This document shows, one piece after another, positions 6,863 to 33,735 of a stretch of DNA of 39,092 nt. Under the pieces are notes generated by a model. That model was not told the DNA's origin. It worked only from the letters and a program-made list of their open reading frames with translations, and searched no databases. The stretch is from a virus. A program made the translations under genes and the position numbers. The stretch is from IMG/VR virus record IMGVR_UViG_3300045988_134801; one strand, given 5' to 3'. The stretch's first letter is position 1. The number at the start of each line of letters is the position of its first letter.

Positions 6863-6886
6863 TGGATTCTCCCTAGAATCGAGTTT

Positions 6887-7363: not shown

Positions 7364-7793
7364 CCAACGGTTCTGCATCAGTCGCGTTCTCGTGGCGATG
7401 AGTCAACGAATCGAATATGCCACGCAAGGTCGCACACAAACCGGAATGACGCTTCCTGCGGGCGAGATGCCATCCCGCATCAACGCCAGCGAGATAAAAC
7501 CACGCATCACCGAAGCTGCATGGGCCGTAACTTGATTCGTCGGTGACCACATCGAAATAGCCGGCCTGCTTCACGTCGTCAATCCAGTATTCGGATGGAA
7601 GCACATCAAGGCATGGCCCTCCGTCCGCTTCGATGGTGCGGCATTTCCAGATGAGACGCTTGAAATCGCCAGCGTTCCCCGGCTCTTTCGGAATGCTCTT
7701 ATCCATCCCCGTGCAGCCGTTGCCGAAGTCGACCCGTTCGAGCGGTTCACCTGGAATCCATTCTCGAACGTCGGATCTCTTCATCTTCCTCAT
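7188..7793 (-). CDS. Hypothetical protein (201 aa)
   Basis: AAGGAGAA SD upstream of the ATG at 7793. The N-terminal 130 aa look protein-like (LIWKCRTIEADGGPCLDVLPSEYWIDDVKQAGYFDVV). The C-terminal tail is low-complexity and overlaps the + ORF. Confidence 0.55.
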   Translation of the reverse strand: MRKMKRSDVREWIPGEPLERVDFGNGCTGMDKSIPKEPGNAGDFKRLIWKCRTIEADGGPCLDVLPSEYWIDDVKQAGYFDVVTDESSYGPCSFGDAWFYLAGVDAGWHLARRKRHSGLCATLRGIFDSLTHRHENATDAEPLVTASKPSRESAEHSSSCGSTPPSLSRSEIHESYDCATCGTTATQSRNHREVAAPHSRR

Positions 7794-7815
7794 TTCGGAT
7801 TCTCCTTTCGATTCA
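7791..7815. repeat. 25-bp junction module, copy 1 (stop codon, SD and ATG of a - strand gene)
   Basis: catttcggattctcctttcgattca is identical to 8420-8444. Similarity continues imperfectly for about 30 more bp (gcgagcgccgcttgc versus gcaagcgccgactgc). Confidence 0.9.
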
Positions 7816-7852
7816 CTCTTCGGCGAGCGCCGCTTGCTTTTTCGAAGCACTC

Positions 7853-8422
7853 TCATTTGAGGCCCTTCCTGCCGAGTGGGAGAATGAGCAGACCCACGCA
7901 AAGAAGGGAGGTGAGAATATGAGCAATGGATCCGATTTCGCGAAGGCGAGCGCCGTGTTCGGGAAGGCCGCTGAAACGTCCGATCCCGACGAGAGGATGA
8001 GAGCCCTGTGCCAAGGGCTTTCCCTCCTCGCCAAGGGATTCGATTCGATGGATGCTTCCATGGCATCCGCCGCCTACTGTCTCGACGTGCTCTCGGATAA
8101 GTTCTGAACGGAGTTCCTGTATCTCCGTGCTTAGTCGGTCCGCGGCCTGATTGATGCGCTCGAGAATCGAGCCCATGACTTCAGTCGTCATGTCGCGGGC
8201 CGACAACTGCCGTCCGACCTCGATGCCGATTCCTCGCAGGTCAAGGCTGGACAGGTGGCTCCTCCTGTCGTCGCCCACTGTTCCGATAACCGTTCGAGCT
8301 GGTTCCTCGCGGACGGCTTTTCTTATCGCGCCCAGCATCGCCGGGTGCAGGCGTTCGAACTCCTCAACGGAAATCGGGTTCGTGGATTCATCCGGTGTCT
8401 CGGCCGGAATGTTGATGCTCAT
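7853..8422 (-). CDS. Hypothetical protein (189 aa); 3' portion uncertain
   Basis: AAGGAGAA SD upstream of the ATG at 8422, 19 nt after the cro-like stop codon. The last 85 codons or so compete with two other frames (7919-8107 + and 7813-8061 -). Confidence 0.5.
   Translation of the reverse strand: MSINIPAETPDESTNPISVEEFERLHPAMLGAIRKAVREEPARTVIGTVGDDRRSHLSSLDLRGIGIEVGRQLSARDMTTEVMGSILERINQAADRLSTEIQELRSELIREHVETVGGGCHGSIHRIESLGEEGKPLAQGSHPLVGIGRFSGLPEHGARLREIGSIAHILTSLLCVGLLILPLGRKGLK
7919..8107 (+). CDS. Small helical protein (62 aa) antisense inside ORF 7853-8422; uncertain
   Basis: A strong SD (GAAGGGAGGTGAG) lies 4 nt before the ATG. Third-position GC counted by hand is about 75%, and the sequence looks natural (MSNGSDFAKASAVFGKAAETSDPDERMRALCQGLSLLAKGF). 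Confidence 0.35.
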   Translation: MSNGSDFAKASAVFGKAAETSDPDERMRALCQGLSLLAKGFDSMDASMASAAYCLDVLSDKF

Positions 8423-8444
8423 TTCGGATTCTCCTTTCGATTCA
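8420..8444. repeat. 25-bp junction module, copy 2
   Basis: Identical to 7791-7815. It spans the cro-like stop codon, the SD and the ATG of the next gene. Confidence 0.9.
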
Positions 8445-8705
8445 TGCGTCGGCAAGCGCCGACTGCTCTTGAATTTTTTCGGTGATGAGTTGCAGTGGAT
8501 CGATCTCACTTTCGGAGACCGAGGCAAACCACATGCTCAATGTCATGTCTTCCGCATCAAGTGCTCTGCTGACAGTTGTCCGATTTCGATTGCAGCGGGC
8601 GGCAATATCAGTCATCTGCGTCTTGCTGATCAGAACGTCATTTCTGGTTCGCCTGATAACCGCTTTTGCGAGCTTGATGCAGTCAACCCTCTTGTCGATC
8701 GTCAT
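8442..8705 (-). CDS. Cro-like XRE-family HTH regulator (first gene of the early operon)
   Basis: 87 aa with an HTH segment (ISKTQMTDIAARCNRNRTTVSRAL). It is divergent from the repressor gene across a 109-bp operator region. A GGAGGTGA SD is present. Confidence 0.75.
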   Translation of the reverse strand: MTIDKRVDCIKLAKAVIRRTRNDVLISKTQMTDIAARCNRNRTTVSRALDAEDMTLSMWFASVSESEIDPLQLITEKIQEQSALADA

Positions 8706-8723
8706 CTGTTTTCACCTCCATCT

Positions 8724-8739
8724 GTAAGCACGTGCTTAC
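8724..8739. promoter_or_regulatory. Operator candidate O1: perfect 16-bp palindrome GTAAGCACGTGCTTAC
   Basis: Read directly in the cro/repressor intergenic region. Confidence 0.6.
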
Positions 8740-8753
8740 TTGATGAGACTGAT

Positions 8754-8769
8754 GTTAGCTCGTGCTTAC
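8754..8769. promoter_or_regulatory. Operator candidate O2: GTTAGCTCGTGCTTAC (14/16 match to O1)
   Basis: Lies 30 bp centre-to-centre from O1. A further CTTAC half-site occurs at 8772-8776. Confidence 0.5.
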
Positions 8770-8814
8770 AACTTACGCAAGTGCGGCGTGTCAACATGTG
8801 TTAACGTTGTGCAC

Positions 8815-9201
8815 ATGGCTACGAAGTACGAATGGACGGCGTTTGATTACGCCTCACAGCAGGCAGCTGCGAAGATCATTGCCGATTCTGGATATTCATA
8901 TCGGACCATCTCTGAGATGATGAACAACGCTGTCAGTCACGTCAGGATCAGCGACATTGAAAAGGGCAGAAAAGCGCCGATCAAGCTATCGGAGTTCCTT
9001 TTGCTTTGCCAAGCATGCGATGCTGATCCAGTCGCCACGTTGCGAGACATCATCGAGGCCGCCCGCGCCTACGAGGCCCGCGAGCGCCAAAAGATCACCG
9101 ATGACCTGGTGGATCGCATCGCCGCGCATCCGGAGGATTACGTCACTGCCGCCAATGACGATCCGAACAAGATGCTTGAGGCGGAGACGCCAAGAGACTA
9201 G
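8815..9201 (+). CDS. CI-like XRE-family HTH repressor (128 aa, no S24 peptidase domain)
   Basis: Has an HTH_XRE core (YSYRTISEMMNNAVSHVRISDIEKGRKAPIKLSEFLLLCQAC). No SD precedes the ATG at 8815, so the transcript may be leaderless. It is divergent from the cro-like gene. Confidence 0.8.
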   Translation: MATKYEWTAFDYASQQAAAKIIADSGYSYRTISEMMNNAVSHVRISDIEKGRKAPIKLSEFLLLCQACDADPVATLRDIIEAARAYEARERQKITDDLVDRIAAHPEDYVTAANDDPNKMLEAETPRD

Positions 9202-9240
9202 ATTTTTTTGATGCAAATCAACTAGGGAAAGAAGGAAACC

Positions 9241-9726
9241 ATGTACAGGAAGACAATCGCAACGGCCGTCGCCGGTCTGCTCATTCTCGGGCTTGGCGCA
9301 TGCGGCAACGCCAGTGACGCCAAAACCGCCGACGCCGGCAGCACGAGCCAATCGCAGACGACGAAGAAGCCGGCAGAGAAGAAGCCGGTAGAACAGCCTG
9401 CGGATCTGACCGGCACATGGAAGCAGACCAACTCCGGCAGCACGGATTCCTGGATGGAAGCCGAGATAACGGCCGACACAATCACCGTCCAGTGGGTCAG
9501 CGACAACGGCGATACGAAGAGCCTGTACTGGAAGGGCTCCTACAATGCGCCGGACAAGGCCGGTGACTGGAAGTGGACGAGCCAGGGAGACACCGCGGCG
9601 ATGCAGGCGTCCCTGCTCGGCTCGCAGGACGCCACCAAGGACTTCACCTACACCAAGGCGGACGGCGTCAGCTGGGAGACCACCGCGATGGGCACCACCA
9701 CAGTGGTGAAGACCGCCAAGCAGTGA
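9241..9726 (+). CDS. Secreted lipoprotein (prophage moron; candidate superinfection-exclusion protein)
   Basis: Signal peptide with lipobox MYRKTIATAVAGLLILGLGAC, followed by a Ser/Thr/Lys-rich linker and a beta-rich domain. A GAAGGAAA SD is present. It lies directly downstream of the repressor. Confidence 0.85.
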   Translation: MYRKTIATAVAGLLILGLGACGNASDAKTADAGSTSQSQTTKKPAEKKPVEQPADLTGTWKQTNSGSTDSWMEAEITADTITVQWVSDNGDTKSLYWKGSYNAPDKAGDWKWTSQGDTAAMQASLLGSQDATKDFTYTKADGVSWETTAMGTTTVVKTAKQ

Positions 9727-9856
9727 GCGATAGGCTCAGCAAGCCGCTCAAGGCGGGAGCTCCAAGGAACTGGGTCTGCGCGCGTCATACGCGGATTGAA
9801 CTATTAGAAATAACCGAATAGTTCAAAACCGTTGGAAACATCAACAACAGACCATT

Positions 9857-9872
9857 TTGTTGACGTCAACAA
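9857..9872. promoter_or_regulatory. Perfect 16-bp palindrome TTGTTGACGTCAACAA, 30 nt upstream of the RhuM-family gene
   Basis: Read directly. It contains a TTGACG -35-like hexamer and sits in a low-GC intergenic region. A second inverted repeat, GAACTATT...AATAGTTC, lies at about 9799-9825. Confidence 0.4.
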
Positions 9873-9901
9873 GATGGTTGTGGAATCGGAAGGAGACAAG
9901 C

Positions 9902-10906
9902 ATGGCGGACGAACCACAGGAAGGCCGGATAATCCTCTACCAAGAGGACGGGCGCAACGTACCAGTCGAAGTCACGTACTGGCGGGAGACGTTCTGGCTC
10001 ACACAGCAGAAAATGGCAGAATTGTTCAATGTTACCGTGCCGACCATCAACGAGCATCTGAAAAACATCTTCTCATCCGGCGAACTGACAGAGACGTCAA
10101 CCATTCGGAAATCTCGAATAGTTCGACAAGAAGGTTCTCGCCAGGTATCAAGAGAAATCTCTTTCTACAATCTCGACGCAATCATCGCCGTCGGATACCG
10201 CGTCAACAGCAGACAGGCCACACAATTCCGCCAATGGGCCACCGGCATCCTACGCGAATACATCGTCAAGGGATTCGCCCTCAACGACGACATGCTCAAG
10301 AACGGCAGACCGTTCGGAGACGACTATTTCGAGGAACTGCTCGACCGCATCCGCGACATCCGCACCAGCGAGCGTCGGTTCTGGCAGAAGGTCACCGACC
10401 TGTTCAGCGAGGTCAGCTACGACTATGACCCGAACTCGCAGACGGCTAGGGACTTCTTCGCCAGCTGCCAGAACAAGATGCACTACGCCGTCACCCATCA
10501 GACCGCCGCCGAAATCGTCATGGATCGTGTGGACGCCGGCAAGCCGAACATGGGATTGACTACTTGGAAGGGCGCTCCGAAAGGACATCCACGGTCCACG
10601 GACGTGACCGTGGCAAAGAACTATCTGAACGAACGCGAGATGAAGGCGTTGAACACGCTCACCACCGGTCTGCTGGACCTCGTGGAGGCACGAGTACTGA
10701 ACCACACCCTCACCAGCATGGAGGAATGCGCCACGCTGATCGACCAGTACATCTCCCTGTCGGGCATGCCGTTGCTGGAAGGCAAAGGCAACCGTGGACA
10801 CGAGCAGATGAGACGCAAGGCCCTCGACGAGTTCCACAAGTGGGATGCGGCACGAGAAAGCGATTTCGACAGGTTCGCCAAGGGATTGGACGGAACTGGA
10901 CGGTGA
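9902..10906 (+). CDS. RhuM-family protein (Virulence_RhuM-like)
   Basis: Matches the RhuM pattern as I remember it (ILYQEDGRNVPVEVTYWRETFWLTQQKMAELF...TINEHLKNIFSSGEL...FYNLDAIIAVGYRVNSRQATQFRQWATGILREYIVKGF). A GGAAGGAGA SD precedes the ATG at 9902. Confidence 0.8.
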   Translation: MADEPQEGRIILYQEDGRNVPVEVTYWRETFWLTQQKMAELFNVTVPTINEHLKNIFSSGELTETSTIRKSRIVRQEGSRQVSREISFYNLDAIIAVGYRVNSRQATQFRQWATGILREYIVKGFALNDDMLKNGRPFGDDYFEELLDRIRDIRTSERRFWQKVTDLFSEVSYDYDPNSQTARDFFASCQNKMHYAVTHQTAAEIVMDRVDAGKPNMGLTTWKGAPKGHPRSTDVTVAKNYLNEREMKALNTLTTGLLDLVEARVLNHTLTSMEECATLIDQYISLSGMPLLEGKGNRGHEQMRRKALDEFHKWDAARESDFDRFAKGLDGTGR

Positions 10907-11301
10907 ACGACGCCACATTGACGTCCTGGGCGAAGACGTTGGGAGTGCGCGTGGAGGAACGTCGGCTGGCCGGAGACAGGTGCGGGATCTACTGCGCCCC
11001 GCTCCGCCTCATCATCCTCGACGAACGACTGGCCGGATTCCAGCGCCGCTGCACCCTCTGCCATGAGCTCATCCACGCGAAACACCACGATTCGGGATGC
11101 GGCACGCAGTATGGGTTGAAGTGCGAGCGCCGTTGCCGCAGGGAGACCGCGTTGGCGTTGATCTCGCCGGTGGATTACGGCATGGCCGAGGAAGTGTACG
11201 AAGGTAACACGTGGATGATGGCCGTGGAATTGGGCGTGACCGTACAGGTATTGTCCGACTACCGGCAGCTGCTCTACGATTCCGACGTGTGCGTGCAATA
11301 A
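10903..11301 (+). CDS. ImmA/IrrE-family zinc metallopeptidase (DUF955-like)
   Basis: HExxH motif (LCHELIHAKHHD). The GTG start overlaps the RhuM stop codon (GTGA at 10903-10906). 132 aa. Confidence 0.7.
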   Translation: MNDATLTSWAKTLGVRVEERRLAGDRCGIYCAPLRLIILDERLAGFQRRCTLCHELIHAKHHDSGCGTQYGLKCERRCRRETALALISPVDYGMAEEVYEGNTWMMAVELGVTVQVLSDYRQLLYDSDVCVQ

Positions 11302-11373: not shown

Positions 11374-11457
11374 AAGGAACCAACAATCAGCATTTCCGTT
11401 TTCACCAAAATGAGGTTCCACGCACAGTGTAGCGCGGATCCTTGGAAAGAGACGACC

Positions 11458-12738
11458 ATGGCCAGAGCGTTCGTAGACGACAGATGGCTCAAAAACGACG
11501 AGGACGGCAACCCGCCCAGCAGGGCCGCGAAACAGTCGCTGGCCAATGCGAAGGATCCGATGAAAGCCAATGTGCCCGACAAATGGCGGTCCGCGCTGTA
11601 CGGCCAAGGTTCACGGTGGAGATGCCGCTGGTACACGCTCCGAGACGGCAAACGCGTCCAGAAATCACGGAACTTCGCCAAGCTCCGTGACGCGGAGGAA
11701 TACGCAGCGGCCATCGAGGACGACATCAGACGCGGCAAATACCGCGACCCGCAGCAGGAACTACGCATCTTCCGGGACGTTGCCTCCGAATGGACGGACG
11801 GCAAGATGGATATCAAACAGGGCACTTTGGGCAGATACCGCCGCGAATTGCGCGTTTATATCAACCCCAAGTGGGGCGATCGCACACTGAGGGAAATCCA
11901 ACGCGACGAACTGCAACAGTGGGTCACGCAGCTCACCGAAGGCGGGTATCCCGCCGAACTGCAGGACGATCGCGAATCGAAGCCATTGAGTCCACGCAGC
12001 ATCCGCAACATCGTCAAGGTCGTCATGGGCGGTGTCATGGAATTCGCTTTGGAGCACGGCTGGATTGGCGAGAACCCCATTGAAAAGGTCACCGTGCCGC
12101 GCATCACGCAATCCGATGACGACATGGTGTTCCTTACCGTCGAGGAGGTGGAGTTGCTGGCCGGCATGGCCGAACGGGCAGGACGGCCGGTAGACGGGCT
12201 GATCGTCCGCTGGCAGGCATACACCGGTGCCCGCATTGGCGAGACGCTGGCACTCAAATGCGGCGACGTGGATGTGGATTCACGCAGGGCGCGCATCCGC
12301 CGCACTTGGACCGACGACGGCAAAGGCAGGCTTGTGCTGGGCACGCCGAAGAACGGCAAACCGCGCAGCATCGCCATACCCAGATTCCTCATACCGTCCA
12401 TCGAACGGCAGATGGAGGGCATGGGCGACGACGACTGGCTGTTCCGCGCGGCAAGAGGCGGGAACCTGTGGACGAACACGTGGCGGACGCGTGTCTGGCG
12501 AAAGGCCGTCCGACTGGCCGGCATGGAGGACGAGGGCGTGACCATCCATAGTTTGAGGCATAGCTATGCGAGCTTTGCAATTGCTCAAGGCGCGGACGTG
12601 AAGACCCTACAGATGCAGCTCGGCCACTCCTCACCCAGCATCACGCTGAACACATACACGGCTCTTTGGCCGGAACGATTGGACGATGTGGCGGACGCGA
12701 TTGGCGAGCTGCGCGCTGAACAGTTGAAGACCGTCTAG
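11458..12738 (+). CDS. int: Tyrosine integrase (phage integrase family)
   Basis: 426 aa. Catalytic signature present: TGARIGE (Arg), HSLRHSYAS (HxxR) and LGHSSPSITLNTY (His/Tyr). It lies adjacent to attP. Confidence 0.9.
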   Translation: MARAFVDDRWLKNDEDGNPPSRAAKQSLANAKDPMKANVPDKWRSALYGQGSRWRCRWYTLRDGKRVQKSRNFAKLRDAEEYAAAIEDDIRRGKYRDPQQELRIFRDVASEWTDGKMDIKQGTLGRYRRELRVYINPKWGDRTLREIQRDELQQWVTQLTEGGYPAELQDDRESKPLSPRSIRNIVKVVMGGVMEFALEHGWIGENPIEKVTVPRITQSDDDMVFLTVEEVELLAGMAERAGRPVDGLIVRWQAYTGARIGETLALKCGDVDVDSRRARIRRTWTDDGKGRLVLGTPKNGKPRSIAIPRFLIPSIERQMEGMGDDDWLFRAARGGNLWTNTWRTRVWRKAVRLAGMEDEGVTIHSLRHSYASFAIAQGADVKTLQMQLGHSSPSITLNTYTALWPERLDDVADAIGELRAEQLKTV

Positions 12739-15164: not shown

Positions 15165-16037
15165 ATGTTGTTGGGAACGTTTGTGAATGAGGTCTGGTGG
15201 CCCTCCTGCGGGAAGCTCCGCGAGTGCACGAGGGTGGGCTACGAGTCGGCCTACCGCTGCCACATCCAGCCGAAATGGGCTGGCGTCGACATGGAGTCGA
15301 TCACCGCGAACGACATCGAGGAGTGGCTCGGCTCGTTCAATCAGGCCGGCGCCGCACGCAAGGCGTGGGGCGTGCTGCGGGCGATACTCCGACTCGCCTA
15401 TCGCAAGGGAGTCACCGACAATGACGTGACACGTCGTGAAATCAGGCTGCCGCACCTGCGGCGGTATGAGCCGCGCGTGCTCGACGCCAGACAGGTAAGA
15501 CGGCTGCTCAAAGGCTTCTACGGTCACGCGTTGGAAGCCTGGTTATTGGTCTCCGTCTGCGCGGGACTGCGCCGATGCGAGTCCGTCGGCATTGAATGGG
15601 CCGACTTGGATTTACGCCGGGGAACCGTGACCGTCAAAAGATCAGTGCAATGGGTCGCTGGACATGAAACGGTCACCGACCCGAAGACCGACCAGAGCCG
15701 ACGGACGGTCGCACTACCACGGTTCGCAGTCAAACGGCTCGCGCAATTGCGCCACGGCAGAACCGGCAGGCTGGTCGGCGATCTGAACGCCAACCAGGTG
15801 GCAGCTCATTACACGTCATGGTGCCAACGCATGAAACTCCCCTGCGTGCCGCCAAGGAACCTCAGGCACACCTTCGGCACTCTGGCAATCGCTGCGGGAG
15901 CCGATATCTCAGTGGTCGCACGACAACTCGGTCACAGCGACATCAAGACAACCGCCCGCTACTATCTCCGCCCCGATTTGTCCGTGCTGAGAAGTCTGCA
16001 GCGGGCATGGGAGCGGCTCATTATCGGGGTCGCATAG
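15165..16037 (+). CDS. Small tyrosine recombinase; predicted shufflon invertase (Rci/Rin-like role)
   Basis: 290 aa. Motifs present: AGLRRCE (Arg), LRHTFGT (HxxR), LGHSDIKTTARYY (His/Tyr). GGAGGT SD. It is the only + strand gene inside the late region, and its stop codon lies inside repeat copy A. Confidence 0.85.
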   Translation: MLLGTFVNEVWWPSCGKLRECTRVGYESAYRCHIQPKWAGVDMESITANDIEEWLGSFNQAGAARKAWGVLRAILRLAYRKGVTDNDVTRREIRLPHLRRYEPRVLDARQVRRLLKGFYGHALEAWLLVSVCAGLRRCESVGIEWADLDLRRGTVTVKRSVQWVAGHETVTDPKTDQSRRTVALPRFAVKRLAQLRHGRTGRLVGDLNANQVAAHYTSWCQRMKLPCVPPRNLRHTFGTLAIAAGADISVVARQLGHSDIKTTARYYLRPDLSVLRSLQRAWERLIIGVA

Positions 16038-16050
16038 CTTTCCGTAACCC
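16035..16050 (+). repeat. Recombination-site candidate A: TAGCTTTCCGTAACCC (core TTCCGTAACCC at 16040-16050)
   Basis: 16/16 identical to copy B. The 11-bp core is identical, in inverted orientation, to copy C. Confidence 0.85.
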
Positions 16051-16298
16051 TTACTTTTGGCAACAGCAACGTTAGTGGCGGACCGTACCCAATCGGTAGG
16101 GTATCTAACCCAAATGCGATCAAGTCCTTGAATGGCAGAGCCACACTGTCGTCCGGAACGACAGTGGCGATTCCATTCATCCACCCGTCATACCTGCAAC
16201 GTTCGGTCCAAGTATCGATTGCACCTGATGGGACAGTCAATCTGCTCGTCGGTCCTGAAGTTGTTGTCACAGGTGGAATCGTGGAAATCCATTTTTAG
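16041..16298 (+). other. Silent RBP C-terminal cassette 1 (85 codons plus stop; no start codon or SD)
   Basis: The open frame begins at the core codons TCC GTA ACC (SVT). It reads SVTLTFGNSNVSGGPYPIGRVSNPNAIKSL...VTGGIVEIHF and its stop codon lies 1 nt before copy B. Confidence 0.75.
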
Positions 16299-27564: not shown

Positions 27565-28452
27565 TCAGGCGGTGAGCAGGACGAAGCGGTTGATGTCGCG
27601 GATACGGAACCCGACTTCGATTTCGATTCGGACGGCGAACATGTTGTGCTCCCACAGGTTTACCTGCTTGCCGTCGATGGTGATGGACGCCTGGTCGGAG
27701 ATGCTGGTCTGCATTCCTTCGACGGAGCCCCATGCGGCGGAGGAGAATTCTCCGCACACGCCGAGGATCTCTGCCTTGGCAGGTCCCGGTGTCTCGGATA
27801 CGGCGGGCACGTGCACGCCCTTGCTGATGTAGGTGCGGTTGCCGAGCACGGTGCTCACGTCGGAGGCGGCGGTGCCGTTGAGGAACAGGGGGCGTCCGTT
27901 GTTGTCGGTCGCCTGACGGAGCACACTGCGACCCTGGGTGCTCAACGCCCAACCGTCCACGGTTCCATCCGCTTCGGACACGAGGTCGTCGGCTTTGTTC
28001 AGGTTCTTCCACACGTCCTTGCCGATGCTGACGGTCTGCGCGCTCTTCAGGGTGTCGAAGTCCGCTCCCGGAGCGTCGACGAGACCCATGATGGTCTTGT
28101 CGAACGTGCGGGCGATGGCTCCCGGACCCTTCGCGACGACTTGGTCGTAGAGAGCGCCGAAGTCACGGCGGAACTGGTTGGAGAACGGCATGATGACCGC
28201 GATGGTGTACGGCAGCATGTCCTTCTTGCCGAAGGTGACGCCGCTCTTCGGCTTCTCGGCGCCCTCGTTGACCCATGCGGCCTCCGGGTCGCCGATGATG
28301 ATCGGCACGCGAGCGCCGTTGCCGGGCAGTTTCATCTCCGGCACGAGCTGCATGAACGCGCTCTGGTATTTTGCGGTCTGCCAGATCTCCGCCTGGGTTT
28401 CAGGGGTGAGGTCTAGACCGTTGCTTTTTCGGGTCATGGACGGATCTGTCAT
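27565..28452 (-). CDS. Major capsid protein (HK97-fold family)
   Basis: 295 aa from the ATG at 28452, with a GAAAGGA SD. It follows the scaffold gene and has capsid-like composition and length. Confidence 0.88.
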   Translation of the reverse strand: MTDPSMTRKSNGLDLTPETQAEIWQTAKYQSAFMQLVPEMKLPGNGARVPIIIGDPEAAWVNEGAEKPKSGVTFGKKDMLPYTIAVIMPFSNQFRRDFGALYDQVVAKGPGAIARTFDKTIMGLVDAPGADFDTLKSAQTVSIGKDVWKNLNKADDLVSEADGTVDGWALSTQGRSVLRQATDNNGRPLFLNGTAASDVSTVLGNRTYISKGVHVPAVSETPGPAKAEILGVCGEFSSAAWGSVEGMQTSISDQASITIDGKQVNLWEHNMFAVRIEIEVGFRIRDINRFVLLTA

Positions 28453-28490
28453 GATTTGTCCTTTCAAATGAATGTTGTTTGCTGGTTGGC

Positions 28491-29009
28491 TCACAGGAGC
28501 GTGTTGCTCATGGCGTTGACGAAGTCCTCGCGGCTGGAATGTTTAGTCTTGGCCTGTCCGGTGCGGGCGCTCTGGTCCGCGACCGTTCCTCGGGAACGCA
28601 TGTCGGCGAACACCTTCATGAGTTTCTCGGCGTATTCGCCGATCTGCTTCTCGTCGTCGCCCGCGAGGACGCTCGGGTCGGTAATGCCGTGTTTGGCCGC
28701 GACGTTGGCGCGTATCGTGGAGAGCTCCTTCTCGTGTTCGGCCTGTTTGGCTTCGCTTTTGAGCTTCTCGTTCTCCTCGAGCGCCTTGGAGAGCTTCGAT
28801 TCGAGGTCGGCTGTCTGTCCGGCCTTCTCCTTGAGCTCCTCGTAGTCGCTTTTCCTGCCGCGTTCCCTGCCGAGACGCTCGTTGATTATGCGGTCGACTT
28901 CCTCCTGGGTGAAGGTCCTCGGCTTCGCGTTGTTCACGTCCTTTGGGGCCGGAGTGCGCTGTTCCGGCTCCTGTTGGCCGTCTGCGCCGGTCTGGTTTTC
29001 TTCTGCCAT
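28491..29009 (-). CDS. Scaffolding protein
   Basis: 172 aa, highly charged coiled coil (EELKEKAGQTADLESKLSKALEENEKLKSEAKQAEHEKEL). AAGGAG SD. It lies upstream of the capsid gene. Confidence 0.8.
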   Translation of the reverse strand: MAEENQTGADGQQEPEQRTPAPKDVNNAKPRTFTQEEVDRIINERLGRERGRKSDYEELKEKAGQTADLESKLSKALEENEKLKSEAKQAEHEKELSTIRANVAAKHGITDPSVLAGDDEKQIGEYAEKLMKVFADMRSRGTVADQSARTGQAKTKHSSREDFVNAMSNTLL

Positions 29010-29121
29010 GGTTGGTGGCTCCTTTGCTTGTTCTTGGTTTCCACGCCTGACGCCGGCGAGTTGACGGCCATTCTTGTTGGTTTCGCGCATGGCTGCGCCC
29101 CGCCCCATCGCTGGGGTGTGA

Positions 29122-29162
29122 AAGGTAAAAGAAAAGCCATCACGTTTCGACGTGATGGCTTT
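29122..29162 (-). terminator. Rho-independent terminator inside the late region, after the toxin/immunity pair
   Basis: The - strand has stem AAAGCCATCACG / CGTGATGGCTTT followed by TCTTTTACCTTT. Confidence 0.7.
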
Positions 29163-29169
29163 CTGGGAT

Positions 29170-29409
29170 TCAGAGATTTCCCAGCGCTTTTCTTCGCGCG
29201 TATTCGGACCGCAGCTCGTCGGTCGACACATAGTCGCCGACGGACCAGCGCTTCTTTCCTTCGTTCCTGACCCATTCATATTCGGACGGCGGCATGGAGA
29301 TATCGCCATACTTGCGTTTGATTTCCGCAAGATGGCGCTCATCGGTGACTTCCTTCAAATCACCGGGCATAAACGTGAAACGGTCGGAACGATCCATAGG
29401 CTCAATCAT
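29170..29409 (-). CDS. Small protein (79 aa), ATGA-coupled to the MuF-ART gene; candidate immunity protein
   Basis: The ATG (29407-29409) overlaps the toxin stop codon (29406-29408). GC is lower than the surroundings and a terminator follows. Confidence 0.6.
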   Translation of the reverse strand: MIEPMDRSDRFTFMPGDLKEVTDERHLAEIKRKYGDISMPPSEYEWVRNEGKKRWSVGDYVSTDELRSEYARRKALGNL

Positions 29410-30821
29410 AGCAGTCTCAGATAAACGATCGGTCTGCCGTCGGATGCTCCAAGCCCTTCGAAACGAAGAGCCCTTCCTCTCGGCAGAAGAATTTCGTATT
29501 CTCCCGGATGCTGAATGATCGGCTCCACATACACGCCGGCGCTTCCCGGCGATACCAGGATTCTTGTGGCGATGCGGTCTTCCCCATCAACGTCAATGCC
29601 TCCCTCCTTGATGCTGGTGGCCATGTAGCCGATGTGTTCGAAGGTGCGACCGGTATTCAAATCGAAAAGCGACTCCATGTCGTTGACGTGGAACGTCGAC
29701 AACCGCATCTGCCTGTCGACCGTGAAACGTTCTCGGGTGATATGGTCGGATATCGCTTCGTCGATGCATTCGACCTGATGGATGACGTCTTTCGACGGGT
29801 TTCGTCCGCCGAACAGGTAGCCGTTGATACTTTTGTAGCTGTCTCCGGTCCAATCCATCAAGGCCGCGATCTTCTCGTCGTTGGAGAATCTATCTCCAGG
29901 CATCCTGACGCTATAATCCGACAATCTCGATAGTTCGGAAGCACTGATTGGAATCGATTTGCCGCTCCATCGAATCGTCGGTTGGGCAGTCACACCATCA
30001 TTGACCTCATCGTGATAGATGCGTCTCAATTGGGCTAGCGTGTCACGCCAGTCGCCGTCATCGCCGGCCGCAGCCTTGGCTGCCTGGTACATTTCACGAT
30101 ACTTGTCCGGATCGTATCCTTTGAGTTTGCTGCTGCCCCAGCTTGGCACGATGTCGCAGTCGCAGTCCGTATGGTATTGCATCTGCCGTCCGGCGGTGTC
30201 CTCGCTCAGGTAGGCGAAGCCACGCGAGGCGAGCATAAGGCAGAACGCGCATGTCTTAGCCCCTCGCGGCACACGCGCCCAGCGAGGCTTGGTGGGATCG
30301 TTGGCCACAGCCCTCTGCATGGTCAGCCGCCCGACGGTCTGAATCAGATTCTGCACGTATTCCAGCGCCTGCTCCTCGTCAGCGAACGTGGGCCACAGGT
30401 CGTCGATGGTTCTTCCGGCGTTGTTGTGAACGGCTCCGTTTTCATCTGGAATGACATCCTTGTAGTGCAATCCCATGAAGTCAGTGTTGTTGAAACCGCC
30501 TTCCATCTGCCAGACCGCGCGGTCGGCGGTGATGGAAGGCGGCTCGTATTCCGGCATATCGATTCCGCCGTACTGCGCCCACAGGTCGCGTACGTGGCCG
30601 TAGTAGTCGGATGCGAGCCTGCTGGCGGCGTCGGCATACCGGTTGATCTCCGCTTTGATGAGCTCCTGGCTTTCACCGTCCCAGACGAGGCCCGAGACAC
30701 TGTTGCCGGCCTCCTTCTGCAGGCGGCTCATGGTGTCCGTGTAATCCTCGTACAAATCATTGAGGTCGAGTTCAAGCCTTCTGCGTCGTTCCGGCGGCAG
30801 GTTCAGACTGTTCGGGCTCAT
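29406..30821 (-). CDS. MuF-like minor capsid protein fused to a C-terminal ADP-ribosyltransferase toxin domain
   Basis: The N-terminal half is MuF-like (PRWARVPRGAKTCAFCLMLASRGFAY...YHTDCDCDIVP). The C-terminal ART motifs are YKSINGYLFGG, FTVDRQM (Arg), GYMATSI (STS-like) and GEYEILLPRG (ExE). It lies directly after the portal gene. Confidence 0.85.
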   Translation of the reverse strand: MSPNSLNLPPERRRRLELDLNDLYEDYTDTMSRLQKEAGNSVSGLVWDGESQELIKAEINRYADAASRLASDYYGHVRDLWAQYGGIDMPEYEPPSITADRAVWQMEGGFNNTDFMGLHYKDVIPDENGAVHNNAGRTIDDLWPTFADEEQALEYVQNLIQTVGRLTMQRAVANDPTKPRWARVPRGAKTCAFCLMLASRGFAYLSEDTAGRQMQYHTDCDCDIVPSWGSSKLKGYDPDKYREMYQAAKAAAGDDGDWRDTLAQLRRIYHDEVNDGVTAQPTIRWSGKSIPISASELSRLSDYSVRMPGDRFSNDEKIAALMDWTGDSYKSINGYLFGGRNPSKDVIHQVECIDEAISDHITRERFTVDRQMRLSTFHVNDMESLFDLNTGRTFEHIGYMATSIKEGGIDVDGEDRIATRILVSPGSAGVYVEPIIQHPGEYEILLPRGRALRFEGLGASDGRPIVYLRLL

Positions 30822-32298
30822 TCATACCGCCTTCCCTCGCCGCCGTATCGGTCTGCTGCTCCGTCTGTTGGCGCATGCCTCGAATCTGATCGAGTACCTG
30901 ACCGGCCTGGGCCTTGCGCTGGTCGGCCTTCAGCCGGACGATCTCGCTTCGGCTCAATCCGGCGCGTGTCATGCCGACCTCGCTGTTGGCGAACGAGTCG
31001 ATGCTTCCAGCGAGCTTGCTGAATGCGTCGGCGCTCATGGAGCTCGACGGCGTGTTCGGGTTCTTCCAGTCGACCTGCAGTTTCATCAGCTCCTCGTCGG
31101 GCACGGATGGATCCTGCATCCGTGCCACAAGACGGGCTGCCTGAAGGATCGATTCACCGAAATCCCGGTCGCAATGGCGCGCCTCGATAATCAGGTCCTC
31201 GCGCTGCGCCTCGGTCGCGTCGGCGGATGTCGGATTCGCGTCGGACACGATGCCGAGCGAGCTGGCGGGAATGTTCATCGCGCTGGCGAACATCGCCGCC
31301 CAACTTTTCAGCATCGTCAAGTGCGGGTCCATGCTGGACGCGGCCAGTTGCGTCACGGTCGGTGACTGCCCGTCGATGTCCTTGCTGATCATGTTGTAGC
31401 GACCCATATAAAGCTTTAACGCGTCGTCCGTGCCCAACGAGGCGAGTTCTTCGGAAGTGCCTGTCAGCAGGATTTTTGGGAAAGCGTAGAATTCGGCATT
31501 CGCTTCGGCGCGCACGATGGTGCGGTTCGCACCGTCGATGATGGCCATAGCGTCCCGGCTGATGCGGGAGCGTCCGAACGGTTTGACCTCGGTAGCCTTG
31601 TAGGCGAGGCGGAACACACTGCACTCGTTGTCGATGGTGGGTTGCTCATCGTCCACGCGCCACCAGTAGCCGAGACGGCGCTGCACGCTGATGTTGCGGT
31701 CGGGCATGTAGAGCACGAGTCCGGTGGCCTCATTGTTGTCGTCAACGTCGGTGATGGCCATGCACGCCCTGACCCGCCGGTTAGGGTAATCCCAGACGGC
31801 GGCCGAGCTTTCCGCGGTATGCGTGCGGATGAGCGGTCTTCCTTCGAAGTCCTGGACAACGCTGAGGAACGAACAGCCGTGAATGAGCGCAGTCTGGATG
31901 GCCTGCTGCAGAACGCTAGTGAATCCGATGCGGCTCATGAAGTCCTGCAGTTCGAACGGGTCGTCCACGCCCGGCGAGACGAATCCCTCGAACACGCAAA
32001 GCTCAGCGAGCATATCCACAGCCTTGCGCGCCCACCCAAGCGGCGTGTAATGATCCTTGATGGACTTCGGCACAGTCAGTCCAAAATCAACCAGTGGCTC
32101 CTTGGCCTCGTAGTAAGCGGTGAGTGTTCGGTTGCGGCTCGCATGGCGCGTCCACACCTCGGCGAGTTCACGCAGCAACGCGTTCTCCTCACCGGAGAGT
32201 CCGTCGATGTGCGTCGGCACGACGAGTTTCGGCACCGTTCCGGCTCCTCCCGTAGGTTTCCACCCGTCCGGCGCTGCCGTTGTCTGGATGTCGCTCAT
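30772..32298 (-). CDS. Portal protein
   Basis: 508 aa, immediately after TerL, with a GGAGGAA SD. The call rests on portal-like length and position. Confidence 0.88.
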   Translation of the reverse strand: MSDIQTTAAPDGWKPTGGAGTVPKLVVPTHIDGLSGEENALLRELAEVWTRHASRNRTLTAYYEAKEPLVDFGLTVPKSIKDHYTPLGWARKAVDMLAELCVFEGFVSPGVDDPFELQDFMSRIGFTSVLQQAIQTALIHGCSFLSVVQDFEGRPLIRTHTAESSAAVWDYPNRRVRACMAITDVDDNNEATGLVLYMPDRNISVQRRLGYWWRVDDEQPTIDNECSVFRLAYKATEVKPFGRSRISRDAMAIIDGANRTIVRAEANAEFYAFPKILLTGTSEELASLGTDDALKLYMGRYNMISKDIDGQSPTVTQLAASSMDPHLTMLKSWAAMFASAMNIPASSLGIVSDANPTSADATEAQREDLIIEARHCDRDFGESILQAARLVARMQDPSVPDEELMKLQVDWKNPNTPSSSMSADAFSKLAGSIDSFANSEVGMTRAGLSRSEIVRLKADQRKAQAGQVLDQIRGMRQQTEQQTDTAAREGGMNEPEQSEPAAGTTQKA

Positions 32299-33735
32299 TT
32301 AGATTCCTCCGATGATCTGTCGTCTTCCCGGATGTCGCTTCGTCGTGCACGCCCCGTACAGGGCGAGTGTGGCGGATACGAGCGGGGTTATGTCGATGTC
32401 ACTGCCGAGTTTGTTCCAAGCGATCGCGCCGGACTGTCCCAATGGACGCGTGGTCGCACCCTTGACGGCCGCGGCCAGCTGCGGCTGGTATTCGTCCCGC
32501 GGATGCTTGAGCGTTCCGGCTTTGAGCATGTCGAGGAACCGGCCGCATGCTCGGCCCATCTCCTGCATGTTCGTGACCGTGACCTTCACATGCGCTTTCT
32601 TCAGTTCCGGCAGCAGGCTCATGGCGGGCGACTGCGCGTCGATGACCACGCTGGCGGTCTTCGGCCAATGTTCGGCGAGCCAGTCCACGGCCCACATGGT
32701 TCCCGCCTGCCGCGCGTCCTTGATGTTCGCCATCTGGACGATGGCCGAACCGTCCGCGTACCGTAGCGCCGCTCCGATGGTCAGCACGCTCCTGTCCGGA
32801 GGCATGTCGATGCCGAAGCTCACGGTTCCCCCATCAGGCACGTCGTCGATGGCCGCGGCCTTCCACAGGTCGGGGCTGATGGCGTATGCGGTGGCGGTCT
32901 CGTCCCATATGCCAAGCGCCTCACGACGGAATGAATCGTCCGACAGGTTGTTGCGCATGCGCATGATTGCCTGTTCGCTTGTACGTTTCGGATAGCTGGG
33001 ATTCGCTTTAGCCCACTGTTCGCGGTCGTCCGAATCCGCGTCCTTGTCGGCGGCGAGCTCCACGTAGAGGAGGTTTCCGTCATGGTTCAGCGCGTGCATG
33101 CGTTTCTCCGTGAACGCCTCGCACTGGTCTCCCGGCTTGGGTGGATTGCCCATATACACGACCAGGGGGTTAGGACTCGTGTTCAAAACCGGAATCATGT
33201 TGTCCATCGCGCGCACTGTGAGGATCTGCGCTTCGTCGAACACGGCCACGTCCACGCTGTGCAATCCTCGGCCGAAGCCGTTTTCGCGGGCGCCGAACAT
33301 GATGCGGCTGCCGGACGTGAACGTGATCTCCTGTTGGCCGTTTGCTCTGCGGATGCGTTCCACGTACCGGCCGAGCACTGGATTGTGCTCCATCTCGCAC
33401 ATGTCCGCGAATGTCTCGTCGCTGGTGCGCGTATGGTGGGCGGTCCAGATGGCTTTCAGGTTCGGTGTGAGTATCGCCTTGAGGAACAACGCGGTGCCGA
33501 CGGTGAAGGTCTTGCCGATCTGCCTGCAGCTGGACAGCACGGCGCCGTCCGCGCCACACGCATACTTGCCTTCCGCGTTCTTGGCGAACAGAAGCCACAA
33601 GAAGCCCTGCTGCCACAAATCGAAACGGATGCCGGCCTTGCGCGCGGCTTTGTTGATTCGCGTGAACTCGCTGCCGACGATGCCTTCCGGCTGGCGGAGG
33701 ACCTTGGCGATTTCAGACAATCGACGCTCCGACAT
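32299..33735 (-). CDS. terL: Terminase large subunit
   Basis: 478 aa. Walker A-like SCRQIGKT and Walker B VDVAVFDEAQ are present, followed by a C-terminal nuclease region. Confidence 0.92.
   Translation of the reverse strand: MSERRLSEIAKVLRQPEGIVGSEFTRINKAARKAGIRFDLWQQGFLWLLFAKNAEGKYACGADGAVLSSCRQIGKTFTVGTALFLKAILTPNLKAIWTAHHTRTSDETFADMCEMEHNPVLGRYVERIRRANGQQEITFTSGSRIMFGARENGFGRGLHSVDVAVFDEAQILTVRAMDNMIPVLNTSPNPLVVYMGNPPKPGDQCEAFTEKRMHALNHDGNLLYVELAADKDADSDDREQWAKANPSYPKRTSEQAIMRMRNNLSDDSFRREALGIWDETATAYAISPDLWKAAAIDDVPDGGTVSFGIDMPPDRSVLTIGAALRYADGSAIVQMANIKDARQAGTMWAVDWLAEHWPKTASVVIDAQSPAMSLLPELKKAHVKVTVTNMQEMGRACGRFLDMLKAGTLKHPRDEYQPQLAAAVKGATTRPLGQSGAIAWNKLGSDIDITPLVSATLALYGACTTKRHPGRRQIIGGI

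What the first reader, a model, noticed from the sequence alone, without database searches (positions are those of the whole stretch)
29122..30821. Capsid-associated MuF-ADP-ribosyltransferase fusion with a translationally coupled small ORF and its own terminator
The gene after the portal gene encodes a MuF-like head protein. Its last 200 aa or so carry a recognisable ART signature (YKSINGYL, an Arg motif, ATS, and EYEILLPRG as the ExE motif). MuF-toxin fusions are a known class of phage polymorphic toxins thought to be packaged and delivered with the DNA. Three further points stand out here. The ART module and the next gene look lower in GC than the MuF half, which suggests module exchange. 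The 79-aa downstream ORF overlaps the toxin stop codon by ATGA, the usual arrangement for a cognate immunity protein. A clean intrinsic terminator (29122-29162) then interrupts the late operon right after this pair, ahead of the scaffold and capsid genes.
Basis: partly seen in the sequence, partly recalled or inferred. Interest (0 to 1): 0.65.

Follow-up and report, generated by a model that had tools for sequence, protein, structure and literature searches.

The report
Phage head protein–ADP-ribosyltransferase toxin cassette
A temperate Bifidobacterium-type phage carries a minor head protein fused to an ADP-ribosylating toxin domain, followed by a small partner gene that always travels with that domain; this is a clear new example of the known "MuF polymorphic toxin" class, not a new kind of system.

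Summary
The 471-aa gene after the portal gene (29406-30821, minus strand) has two parts. Residues 15-248 are a VG15 domain, which is the MuF4 family of Jamet 2017. Residues about 285-471 are a C3/VIP2-like ADP-ribosyltransferase (ART). Arg370 and Glu443 are invariant, the ExE motif is present, and the STS motif reads ATS. Pfam, PDB sequence search and Foldseek on an AlphaFold model all agree.

The 79-aa ORF (29170-29409, ATGA overlap) is a real, unannotated protein family. It follows every Bifidobacteriaceae ART tail examined and no other tail class. It diverges in step with the ART domain, not the backbone, and also occurs as orphan copies. That is the signature of a cognate immunity protein.

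DNA comparison with relatives carrying other tails places the swapped cassette at about 29162-29990, which matches the low-GC stretch.

The terminator hairpin (29132-29163) is real. However, it belongs to the conserved backbone upstream of the scaffold gene and marks the cassette's right edge.

MuF-ART toxins with small immunity genes are already known: Jamet 2017, and Bxa/Bsi in Bacteroides 2024. Verdict: new member of a known kind. Packaging, toxicity and neutralisation remain inferred.

The parts
30772..32298 (-). Portal gene (SPP1_portal). It lies immediately upstream of the toxin gene and overlaps its start by 50 nt.
   Evidence: Pfam PF05133 E 2e-29; ORF list
29991..30821 (-). N-terminal VG15 (= MuF4) domain of the 471-aa protein, aa 1-277. 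It has invariant C191, C194, H217, C220 and C222, and ends at the conserved RRxYxxxxxDGV junction.
   Evidence: Pfam PF25310 E 4.6e-42; alignments A1 and A2; Angel gp4 is VG15; hhalign against MuF1 gives prob 78%, E 1.7e-5
29406..29990 (-). Linker plus C-terminal ADP-ribosyltransferase domain (aa 278-471 and the stop codon). Catalytic positions: R370 (29712-29714), A401-T402-S403 (29613-29621), E441-Y-E443 (29493-29501).
   Evidence: Pfam PF03496 E 9e-19; PDB phmmer hits to Vip2, CdtA and C3 with motif alignment; AF2 model pLDDT 82.7; Foldseek on PDB finds Plx2A, C3bot, Certhrax and Vip2 at E about 1e-10, TMt 0.66-0.69; column conservation
29170..29409 (-). 79-aa small ORF ('c5' family), the presumed cognate immunity/inhibitor protein. 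Its ATG overlaps the toxin stop codon (ATGA).
   Evidence: Sequence; 24 homologues at 51-95% identity, none annotated; alignment down to 27% identity with invariant V21, W46, S62, E69, Y70; strict linkage to ART tails; three-helix model at pLDDT 72.5 with no PDB relative
29162..29990 (.). Exchangeable toxin-immunity cassette, about 0.83 kb. It has low GC (0.537) and is bounded by the DGV junction on one side and the hairpin on the other.
   Evidence: blastn break points against L084, L086 and L002; GC and GC3
29122..29163 (-). Intrinsic-terminator-like hairpin (stem 29163-29132) plus a T-run. It is a conserved backbone element upstream of the scaffold gene.
   Evidence: Terminator scan; dG -21.2, z -6.6; present in relatives with other tails or no tail; alignment shows one compensatory change and one G.U change
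29013..29121 (-). Conserved untranslated leader between the hairpin and the scaffold start codon. An AAGGAG ribosome-binding site precedes the ATG at 29012.
   Evidence: Sequence; alignment A7
28491..29012 (-). Head scaffolding gene (context).
   Evidence: PHROG scaffolding families E 4e-11; DUF4355; the CDS of OY725605.1 has the same length
27565..28494 (-). HK97-type major capsid protein gene (context).
   Evidence: Pfam Phage_capsid E 1e-21

Best explanation
This is a MuF-family polymorphic toxin locus in the head module of a temperate siphophage of Bifidobacteriaceae.

**Shown here.**
- The 471-aa protein joins a VG15/MuF4 minor-head-protein domain to a C3/VIP2-like mono-ADP-ribosyltransferase of the R-S-E type.
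- The 79-aa gene that follows belongs to the same exchangeable unit as the ART domain.
- Together they form a low-GC cassette of about 0.83 kb. It is swapped by recombination between the conserved 'DGV' end of the MuF domain and the conserved hairpin/leader upstream of the scaffold gene.

**Inferred.**
- The MuF domain brings a few copies of the fusion into the procapsid through the portal, as SPP1 gp7 does.
- The ART is therefore ejected with the DNA into the next cell, as with T4 Alt, and ADP-ribosylates cytoplasmic proteins there. The ExE motif suggests the targets are arginines.
- The small protein binds and blocks the ART active site in the producing cell, like Bsi for Bxa or IapK for Apk2. 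Tight translational coupling keeps inhibitor supply tied to toxin synthesis.
- Retained or orphan copies of the small gene can protect cells that receive the toxin.
For: **Domain identity.** Pfam VG15 E 4.6e-42 and ADPrib_exo_Tox E 9e-19. PDB sequence hits to Vip2, CdtA, C3 and iota with R, STS and ExE aligned. AF2 model with Foldseek E about 1e-10 to Plx2A, C3bot, Certhrax and Vip2. R370 and E443 are invariant in 31 of 31 homologues.

**MuF membership.**
- The gene lies directly after the portal gene.
- Angel gp4, the MuF4 seed in PMC5576092, is VG15.
- hhalign against MuF1 gives 78%, E 1.7e-5.
- The top BFVD hit is a 'MuF-like fusion protein'.

**Polymorphism.** The same N-terminal domain is fused to ART, EndoU, Gln_amidase, CdiA_C-like and unknown tails.

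**Cassette.** Break points are at window 29991 or 30102 on one side and 29161 or 29199 on the other. They coincide with the GC and GC3 dip. A relic of the small ORF's last 12 codons (AEHARGKALGTP*) sits behind the EndoU immunity gene of L084.

**Partner linkage.**
- The c5 HMM hits sequence directly downstream of every Bifidobacteriaceae ART tail examined: the window, L082, L001, L003, L004, L005, L006 and L027 and L090. P0143, a c5 homologue, is the gene right after the VG15-ART gene in L090-L093.
- It hits none of the roughly 66 loci with other tails, apart from an orphan case.
- L003 and L005 share 84% identity in the N-terminal domain but only 47% in the ART and 41% in c5. Across pairs, r(ART, c5) = 0.91.
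- Orphan c5 copies occur next to an ART 3' fragment (L026) and behind another cassette (L088).

**Precedents.** MuF toxins are usually followed by small ORFs, and 14% of them are ARTs (PMC5576092). Bxa with Bsi and BAH (PMC11699363), and Apk2 with IapK (PMC12226406), were shown experimentally.

**Temperate phage.** The window carries an integrase, an antirepressor and an endolysin.
Against: - No experiment or complex prediction shows that the small protein binds or neutralises the ART. Its model is only moderately confident, and it has no structural or Pfam relative.
- The first Ser of the STS motif is Ala in 30 of 31 family members. This could lower activity, although Ala occurs at that position in 19 of 181 related ART domains that keep R and ExE.
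- Packaging and ejection of the fusion are not shown for any VG15 protein.
- Two tail classes (0 and 5) have no small ORF, so a partner is not universal.
- No promoter-like site was found in front of the small ORF, so expression in the lysogen is unsupported.
- More distant Actinomycetaceae ART tails (L033, L035) carry a small ORF that matches c5 only weakly (hhalign prob 24%).
Confidence: 0.72

Rival explanations
1. The ART is a non-lethal host-takeover or fitness enzyme rather than a killing toxin. Examples are T4 Alt acting on RNA polymerase, and Bxa acting on mammalian cells after release by lysis. On this view the small protein is a regulator or packaging chaperone that keeps the domain folded or inactive until assembly, not an immunity protein in the competitive sense.
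For: - BFVD Foldseek also returns Alt-like RNA polymerase ADP-ribosylases, and PHROG gives weak hits to Alt-like families.
- Bxa, the only characterised MuF-ART, was first described as a colonisation factor (PMC11699363).
- No promoter that would express the small ORF in lysogens was found.
- Tail classes without a small ORF exist.
Against: - Intact c5 genes are retained as orphans without a full-length ART (L026, L088). That fits protection against incoming toxin better than a chaperone role.
- Bxa is itself bactericidal and needs Bsi and BAH (PMC11699363).
- The cassette is polymorphic and includes nucleases and deamidases, which is typical of toxin systems.
Confidence: 0.18
2. The N-terminal domain is a head maturation protease, as annotated in PHROGs and in the near-identical public phage record. 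The protein would then be a protease-ART fusion, not a MuF-type minor head protein.
For: - PHROG 13257 and 193 are labelled 'head maturation protease' (E 2e-52 and 1e-33).
- OY725605.1 and many actinophage records use that label.
- No separate protease gene lies between the portal and capsid genes.
Against: - The invariant residues are four Cys and one His in a CxxC...HxxCxC pattern, not a Ser/His protease dyad.
- The model is mostly long helices.
- The profile matches MuF1 over this core.
- The same family is labelled 'MuF-like' in other records.
- The SPP1-like head module (SPP1_portal, gp7-like gene, scaffold, capsid; layout) is known to assemble without a protease. That last point is my own knowledge of SPP1.
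- No protease structure was found by profile search of the PDB.
Confidence: 0.05
3. The ART domain is catalytically degenerate (STS changed to ATS) and serves only as a structural C-terminal extension. The small ORF would be an unrelated moron that happens to be linked.
For: The first Ser of the STS motif is replaced by Ala throughout the family.
Against: - R370 and E443 are invariant, and E/Q441 is conserved across homologues down to about 30% identity. This indicates purifying selection on the active site.
- Ala at that position recurs in about 10% of related ARTs.
- The small ORF tracks the ART, not the backbone.
Confidence: 0.05

Closest known systems
MuF polymorphic toxins (Jamet et al. 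2017, PMC5576092), specifically the MuF4 family seeded on mycobacteriophage Angel gp4
   Same: - The gene lies directly after the portal gene in a temperate phage.
- It has a conserved N-terminal MuF-superfamily domain (VG15 = MuF4) and a variable C-terminal toxin domain.
- A small ORF follows.
- ART is one of the recurrent toxin types, at 14% of the paper's set.
- The paper already noted a Bifidobacterium bifidum MuF4-EndoU toxin.
   Different: - This particular ART subfamily (A-x-S in place of STS) and its 79-aa partner family are not named or described there.
- The cassette boundaries, the relic scar and the orphan copies documented here are new details, not new principles.
Bxa / Bsi / BAH of the Bacteroides stercoris prophage (Alexei et al. 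2024, PMC11699363)
   Same: - It is a prophage head-module MuF-ART fusion.
- It is an arginine-type ART.
- An adjacent small non-enzymatic immunity protein (Bsi) blocks the active site.
- The N-terminal domain is fused to other toxins in relatives.
   Different: - The host phylum differs: Actinomycetota here, Bacteroidota for Bxa.
- The window protein's MuF domain is Pfam VG15. I did not examine which MuF family Bxa's domain belongs to.
- No ADP-ribosylhydrolase (BAH-like) gene is present here; there is only one small ORF.
It matches no Pfam family.
Actinobacteriophage 'ADP-ribosyltransferase domain and MuF-like fusion protein' (for example Microbacterium phage Percival, UniProt A0A2Z4Q6J5)
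   Same: It has the same two-domain architecture and is the top BFVD structural match over the whole length (E 1.3e-14).
   Different: - It is longer (678 aa) and only 16% identical.
- It is known from annotation only, with no functional study that I know of.
T4 Alt (head-packaged ART injected with the DNA)
   Same: It is an ART of the same R-S-E superfamily that is carried in the capsid and delivered with the genome. It is the functional model for delivery.
   Different: - Alt is not fused to a MuF domain and is targeted to the head in a different way.
- It has no immunity gene.
- It belongs to a virulent phage.
- Only weak PHROG and Foldseek similarity was found.

Membership tests
R-S-E clade mono-ADP-ribosyltransferases (Pfam ADPrib_exo_Tox; C3/VIP2/iota-like) | Significant match to the family profile above the curated cut-off | tested here: met
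   PF03496 at 68 bits against a cut-off of 23.4, E 9e-19, aa 313-454
R-S-E clade mono-ADP-ribosyltransferases (Pfam ADPrib_exo_Tox; C3/VIP2/iota-like) | Catalytic Arg on the first NAD-binding strand | tested here: met
   R370 (FTVDR) aligns with the Vip2 TVYR arginine and is invariant in 31 of 31 homologues
R-S-E clade mono-ADP-ribosyltransferases (Pfam ADPrib_exo_Tox; C3/VIP2/iota-like) | Ser-Thr-Ser motif | tested here: inconclusive
   The motif reads A401-T402-S403. The first Ser is Ala in 30 of 31 family members, and the third is S or T in 30 of 31. Ala occurs at that position in 19 of 181 related ART domains. The effect on activity is unknown.
R-S-E clade mono-ADP-ribosyltransferases (Pfam ADPrib_exo_Tox; C3/VIP2/iota-like) | ExE (or QxE) ARTT-loop motif with the catalytic Glu | tested here: met
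   E441-Y-E443 aligns with the Vip2 ExE. E443 is present in 31 of 31 homologues; position 441 is E in 25 and Q in 6.
R-S-E clade mono-ADP-ribosyltransferases (Pfam ADPrib_exo_Tox; C3/VIP2/iota-like) | ART fold | tested here: met
   The AF2 model (pLDDT 82.7) matches Plx2A, C3bot1, Certhrax, Vip2 and CDTa at E 2e-10 to 1e-9, TMt 0.66-0.69
R-S-E clade mono-ADP-ribosyltransferases (Pfam ADPrib_exo_Tox; C3/VIP2/iota-like) | NAD-dependent ADP-ribosylation activity | not testable with these tools
   Needs an enzyme assay
MuF polymorphic toxins (Jamet 2017) | Gene immediately downstream of the portal gene in the head/packaging module | tested here: met
   Portal 30772-32298, toxin gene 29406-30821
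MuF polymorphic toxins (Jamet 2017) | N-terminal domain of the MuF superfamily (MuF1-4) | tested here: met
   VG15 E 4.6e-42. The MuF4 seed, Angel gp4, is VG15 at E 5e-32. hhalign of the VG15 alignment against a MuF1 alignment gives prob 78%, E 1.7e-5 over 64 columns. Comparison with the single SPP1 gp7 sequence was uninformative.
MuF polymorphic toxins (Jamet 2017) | C-terminal extension of at least 100 aa carrying a toxin domain that varies among proteins with homologous N-termini | tested here: met
   The tail is 194 aa. Relatives carry ART, EndoU, Gln_amidase, CdiA_C-like and unknown tails.
MuF polymorphic toxins (Jamet 2017) | Small ORF (<150 aa) immediately downstream that is specific to the toxin type | tested here: met
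   The 79-aa ORF overlaps the stop codon. Downstream ORF families co-vary with tail class.
MuF polymorphic toxins (Jamet 2017) | Encoded by a temperate phage or prophage | tested here: met
   Integrase 11410-12738, antirepressor and endolysin in the window. The relative OY725605.1 has integrases. Homologues sit in Bifidobacterium chromosomes.
MuF polymorphic toxins (Jamet 2017) | Toxicity neutralised by the downstream protein | not testable with these tools
   Needs co-expression and binding assays.
Head maturation proteases (label used by PHROGs and the public record) | Protease fold and catalytic residues | tested here: not met
   The invariant residues are Cys/His in CxxC...HxxCxC. The model is helical. 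A profile search of the PDB found no protease, and no Pfam peptidase family matched at E<=1.

The most novel reading that the evidence does not exclude
The 79-aa 'c5' protein may found a previously undescribed family of small, three-helix, non-enzymatic inhibitors specific for an A-x-S subfamily of phage MuF-ARTs. Chromosomal orphan copies (L026, L088) would then act as stand-alone protection of Bifidobacterium cells against ART delivered by virions, making it a toxin-immunity arms race carried out through phage capsids. A second, smaller point: the hairpin plus the strongly conserved 110-nt leader upstream of the scaffold gene may be a regulatory RNA element that also serves as the right-hand recombination anchor for cassette swapping.
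Probability: 0.4. Interest if true: 0.45.

Novelty: new member of a known kind. Interest (0 to 1): 0.3.

Why it matters
Bifidobacteria are key gut commensals, and their prophages are poorly characterised. This locus shows that their phages carry the same capsid-linked polymorphic toxin system described in Firmicutes and Bacteroides. It has a well-delimited swap cassette and a new candidate ART inhibitor family.

It also shows that the public label 'head maturation protease' for this gene family is probably wrong.

The locus offers a compact pair, a 187-aa ART and a 79-aa partner, for testing how MuF toxins are neutralised and whether they are delivered by virions. It does not open a new category of system.

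Tried and rejected
- hhalign of the VG15 alignment against the single SPP1 gp7 sequence matched only 7 columns, prob 1%. It was replaced by a profile built from MuF1-ART representatives. The first iterated HMM drifted into ART sequence and hit nothing, so I discarded it.
- A protein search with the ART tail alone returned only 3 proteins because of the word index. It was uninformative and was replaced by the exhaustive phmmer search. That search showed a narrow subfamily (7 clusters at E<=1e-30) whose nearest neighbours are again VG15-ART or MuF1-ART fusions.
- An Rfam scan of 28800-29500 found nothing near any gathering score.
- Foldseek and PDB profile searches for the small protein and the VG15 domain gave only chance helical matches.
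- Pfam, PHROG and NCBIfam searches for the small ORF found nothing.
- The promoter scan found no sigma-70-like site upstream of the small ORF or after the hairpin. The one site found lies inside the scaffold gene.
- The idea that the terminator belongs to the cassette was rejected on the DNA break points and on its presence in tail-less relatives.
- The small ORFs of the Actinomycetaceae ART loci (L033, L035) could not be shown to be c5 homologues (prob 24%).
Full report
**1. What is in the sequence**

All genes of the region lie on the minus strand. In order they are:
- large terminase, 32299-33735;
- SPP1-type portal, 30772-32298 (Pfam E 2e-29);
- a 471-aa ORF, 29406-30821;
- a 79-aa ORF, 29170-29409;
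- a scaffolding gene, whose real start is the ATG at 29012 behind an AAGGAG site;
- an HK97-type major capsid gene, 27565-28494.

The window also holds a tyrosine integrase (11410-12738), a GH25-LysM endolysin, an antirepressor and a primase-polymerase. It is therefore a temperate phage genome. A 39.9-kb uncultured siphovirus record, OY725605.1, matches it at 84-94% nucleotide identity across the 5-kb portal-to-capsid stretch compared. The 471-aa protein is 97% identical by tblastn. Homologues of the 471-aa protein come almost entirely from Bifidobacterium and related Actinomycetota genomes.

**2. The 471-aa protein**

Pfam finds two domains. VG15 (PF25310) covers aa 15-248 at E 4.6e-42. ADPrib_exo_Tox (PF03496) covers aa 313-454 at E 9e-19, scoring 68 bits against a cut-off of 23.4.

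A sequence search of the PDB finds Vip2, CDTa, C3, Certhrax and iota Ia. The printed alignment places three query motifs on their Vip2 counterparts:
- FTVDR on the Vip2 TVYR arginine;
- GYMATS on GYMSTS;
- GEYEILL on the Vip2 ExE.

An AlphaFold2 model built on 27 homologues has mean pLDDT 82.7. Foldseek against the PDB returns Plx2A, C3bot1, Certhrax and Vip2 at E 2e-10 to 1e-9, with target TM-scores of 0.66-0.69 over about 200 residues.

Conservation across 31 ART-bearing homologues down to about 30% identity is as follows:
- R370 and E443 are invariant.
- Position 441 is E in 25 and Q in 6.
- The first Ser of STS is Ala in 30 of 31.
- The third position is Ser or Thr in 30 of 31.

Among 181 related ART domains from an exhaustive search, Ala occupies that first position in 19. 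ATS is thus a recurrent natural variant, not a sign of decay. Its effect on activity is still unknown.

**3. Is the N-terminal half MuF-like?**

PHROGs and the public record call it 'head maturation protease'. I found no support for that label, for four reasons:
- The invariant residues are C191, C194, H217, C220 and C222.
- The model is mainly long helices.
- No peptidase family appears in Pfam.
- No protease appears in a profile search of the PDB.

Evidence for MuF membership comes from several directions:
- Jamet et al. (PMC5576092) defined a MuF4 family from mycobacteriophage Angel gp4 and showed by HMM-HMM comparison that it is related to Phage_Mu_F.
- Angel gp4 matches Pfam VG15 at E 5e-32, so VG15 is MuF4.
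- I built a MuF1 alignment from SPP1 gp7 and 23 MuF1-ART proteins found. hhalign against the VG15 alignment gives probability 78% and E 1.7e-5 over 64 columns. It aligns the CxxC...HxxCxC core with the MuF1 '...C..C..G...HPnCrC' core.
- Foldseek against BFVD returns an 'ADP-ribosyltransferase domain and MuF-like fusion protein' of Microbacterium phage Percival as top hit, and stand-alone MuF-like proteins at TMt about 0.6.

Gene position directly after an SPP1-type portal, and the absence of a separate protease gene, match the SPP1 layout.

**4. Polymorphism and the cassette**

Homologues share the N-terminal domain up to a conserved RRxYxxxxxDGV motif (window aa 266-277) and then diverge into unrelated tails. 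The tails are ART, EndoU, papain-fold glutamine deamidase, a weak CdiA_C-like tail, a metallopeptidase-like tail and others.

At the DNA level:
- A Bifidobacterium dentium relative with an EndoU tail (L084) is 83% identical from window 30784 down to 29991. That is exactly the codon after DGV. Identity resumes at about 29199.
- A relative with another tail (L086) is 94% identical down to 30102 and resumes at 29161, the first base of the hairpin.

The interval 29162-29990 has GC 0.537 and GC3 0.64. Neighbouring head genes have GC 0.60-0.62 and GC3 0.75-0.83. It is the only 830-nt stretch of the structural module below 0.56 GC.

Behind the EndoU immunity gene of L084 there is a relic reading AEHARGKALGTP*. 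This corresponds to the last 12 codons of the window's small ORF (...SEYARRKALGNL*). It is a scar showing that an ART cassette was displaced there.

**5. The 79-aa ORF**

Its ATG overlaps the toxin stop codon as ATGA. It has no Pfam, PHROG or NCBIfam match. It does have 24 unannotated homologues and aligns with proteins down to 27% identity of the same length, with V21, W46, S62, E69 and Y70 invariant. It is therefore a real protein. The model is a three-helix protein at pLDDT 72.5 with no structural relative.

In 80 related genomic loci I clustered the tails and the ORFs that follow them. Each tail class has its own downstream small-ORF families, and two classes have none. An HMM of the window's family ('c5') hits sequence directly downstream of every Bifidobacteriaceae ART tail tested: the window, L082, L001, L003, L004, L005, L006 and L027, and L090. 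P0143, a c5 homologue at 51% identity, is the gene directly after the VG15-ART gene in the four phage contigs L090-L093. The HMM hits none of the loci with other tails, with one exception described below.

L003 and L005 have N-terminal domains 84% identical, but their ARTs are only 47% identical and their small proteins 41%. Over all pairs, small-protein identity correlates with ART identity (r = 0.91) better than with N-terminal identity (r = 0.72). The small gene therefore belongs to the ART module, not to the phage backbone.

Two orphan cases were found:
- In B. jacchi (L026), an intact c5 gene is preceded by only the last 50 codons of an ART. It sits next to a HicAB-like pair.
- In L088, a c5 gene is the second small ORF behind a degraded non-ART cassette.

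Orphan and stacked immunity genes are a hallmark of polymorphic toxin loci, as discussed in PMC11699363. These observations support a cognate neutralising partner but do not prove binding.

**6. The terminator**

The hairpin at 29163-29132 has a 14-bp stem, dG -21.2 kcal/mol, z = -6.6 against shuffles, and a T-run after it. Terminator-like hairpins lie between the VG15 gene or cassette and the scaffold gene in most relatives. That includes loci with other tails and loci with no tail at all.

In the close relatives with different cassettes, the hairpin and the roughly 110-nt leader that follows are better conserved than the coding sequence. L084 shows one compensatory change and one G.U change in the stem. 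The hairpin is thus part of the backbone and marks the right edge of the swap region.

How late transcription passes it, or whether it acts as a 3' stabiliser or processing site, cannot be settled here. No promoter-like site follows it, and Rfam has no match.

**7. Mechanism**

Shown here:
- domain identities and an intact catalytic Arg and Glu;
- polymorphism of the tail;
- the cassette boundaries;
- linkage of the small ORF to the ART.

Inferred:
- The MuF domain brings the fusion into the capsid. SPP1 gp7 and 80alpha gp44 are cited for this in PMC12226406.
- The fusion is then ejected with the DNA, as T4 Alt is (cited in PMC5576092).
- The ExE motif points to arginine targets.
- The small protein blocks the active site in the producer cell, as Bsi does for Bxa (PMC11699363) and IapK does for Apk2 (PMC12226406).

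**8. Comparison and novelty**

MuF toxins were defined in 2017. In that study 14% were ARTs and 89% were followed by small ORFs, and a Bifidobacterium MuF4-EndoU example was already mentioned (PMC5576092). A MuF-ART with a small inhibitory immunity protein has been characterised in Bacteroides (PMC11699363). Actinophage annotators use the name 'ADP-ribosyltransferase domain and MuF-like fusion protein'.

The nearest ART relatives outside this subfamily are again VG15-ART or Phage_Mu_F-ART fusions.

The locus is a new member of a known kind. What is new is local:
- an unnamed small-protein family tied to an A-x-S ART subfamily;
- precisely mapped recombination junctions with a scar;
- orphan copies of the small gene;
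- a probably wrong public annotation.

Interest is modest.

Noticed in passing
L026:11009-11405 (Bifidobacterium jacchi): An orphan module: the last 50 codons of an ART (63% identical to window aa 422-471) are followed by an intact 79-aa c5 homologue. It sits next to a HicA/HicB-like pair (10304-10983) and a further VG15 fragment (11896-12042).
   Followed up: partly
L088:2679-4228: A degraded VG15 gene with a metallopeptidase-like tail is followed by two small ORFs. The second is a c5 homologue, although the locus has no ART. Cas1, Cas2 and Cas4 genes lie 2 kb away.
   Followed up: partly
L084/L085:5001-7556 and L086/L087 (B. dentium and relatives): These are chromosomal remnants that keep only the VG15-toxin gene, its small ORF(s), the scaffold gene and a truncated capsid gene. 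They have no portal or terminase and are flanked by host genes. This could be decay, or retention of the toxin-immunity pair as an addictive module.
   Followed up: no
L084:6394-6450: A relic of the c5 gene's 3' end (AEHARGKALGTP*) lies directly behind the EndoU-type immunity gene. It is a scar of cassette replacement.
   Followed up: yes
L009, L017-L025 (tail class 0) and L019, L022, L031, L032 (tail class 5): VG15 proteins with 165-190-aa tails (a weak CdiA_C hit, or no Pfam hit at all) have no small ORF before the scaffold gene. Either these tails are not toxic or their immunity gene is encoded elsewhere.
   Followed up: no
L081:6189-6395 (mycobacteriophage Angel gp5): The 68-aa gene right after the MuF4 protein gp4 matches Pfam RMF (ribosome modulation factor) at E 2e-10. 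That is an unexpected partner for a MuF protein with a long uncharacterised tail.
   Followed up: no
window 29013-29121: The untranslated leader between the hairpin and the scaffold start codon is more conserved among relatives than the adjacent coding sequence. It contains further small hairpins. No promoter-like site and no Rfam match were found.
   Followed up: partly
window 30772-30821: The portal ORF overlaps the start of the toxin gene by 50 nt. In the close relative OY725605.1 there is a 139-nt gap instead, and portal identity drops to 84% against 94% downstream. This suggests a second recombination boundary near the portal 3' end.
   Followed up: no
OY725605.1 20832-22483 (L082:5932-7583): The public record of the near-identical phage annotates the MuF-ART gene as 'head maturation protease' and the small ORF as hypothetical. 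The PHROG families 13257 and 193 carry the same, probably wrong, label.
   Followed up: yes
L046:5677-7599 (Schaalia turicensis): This is a more distant VG15-ART with a canonical STS motif and an ERE motif. It is followed by a different, 152-aa downstream ORF, so different ART subfamilies have different partner proteins.
   Followed up: partly
window 5000-9900 and 15750-16250: These are other low-GC stretches of the window (0.51-0.55), outside the structural module. They may be further acquired genes.
   Followed up: no
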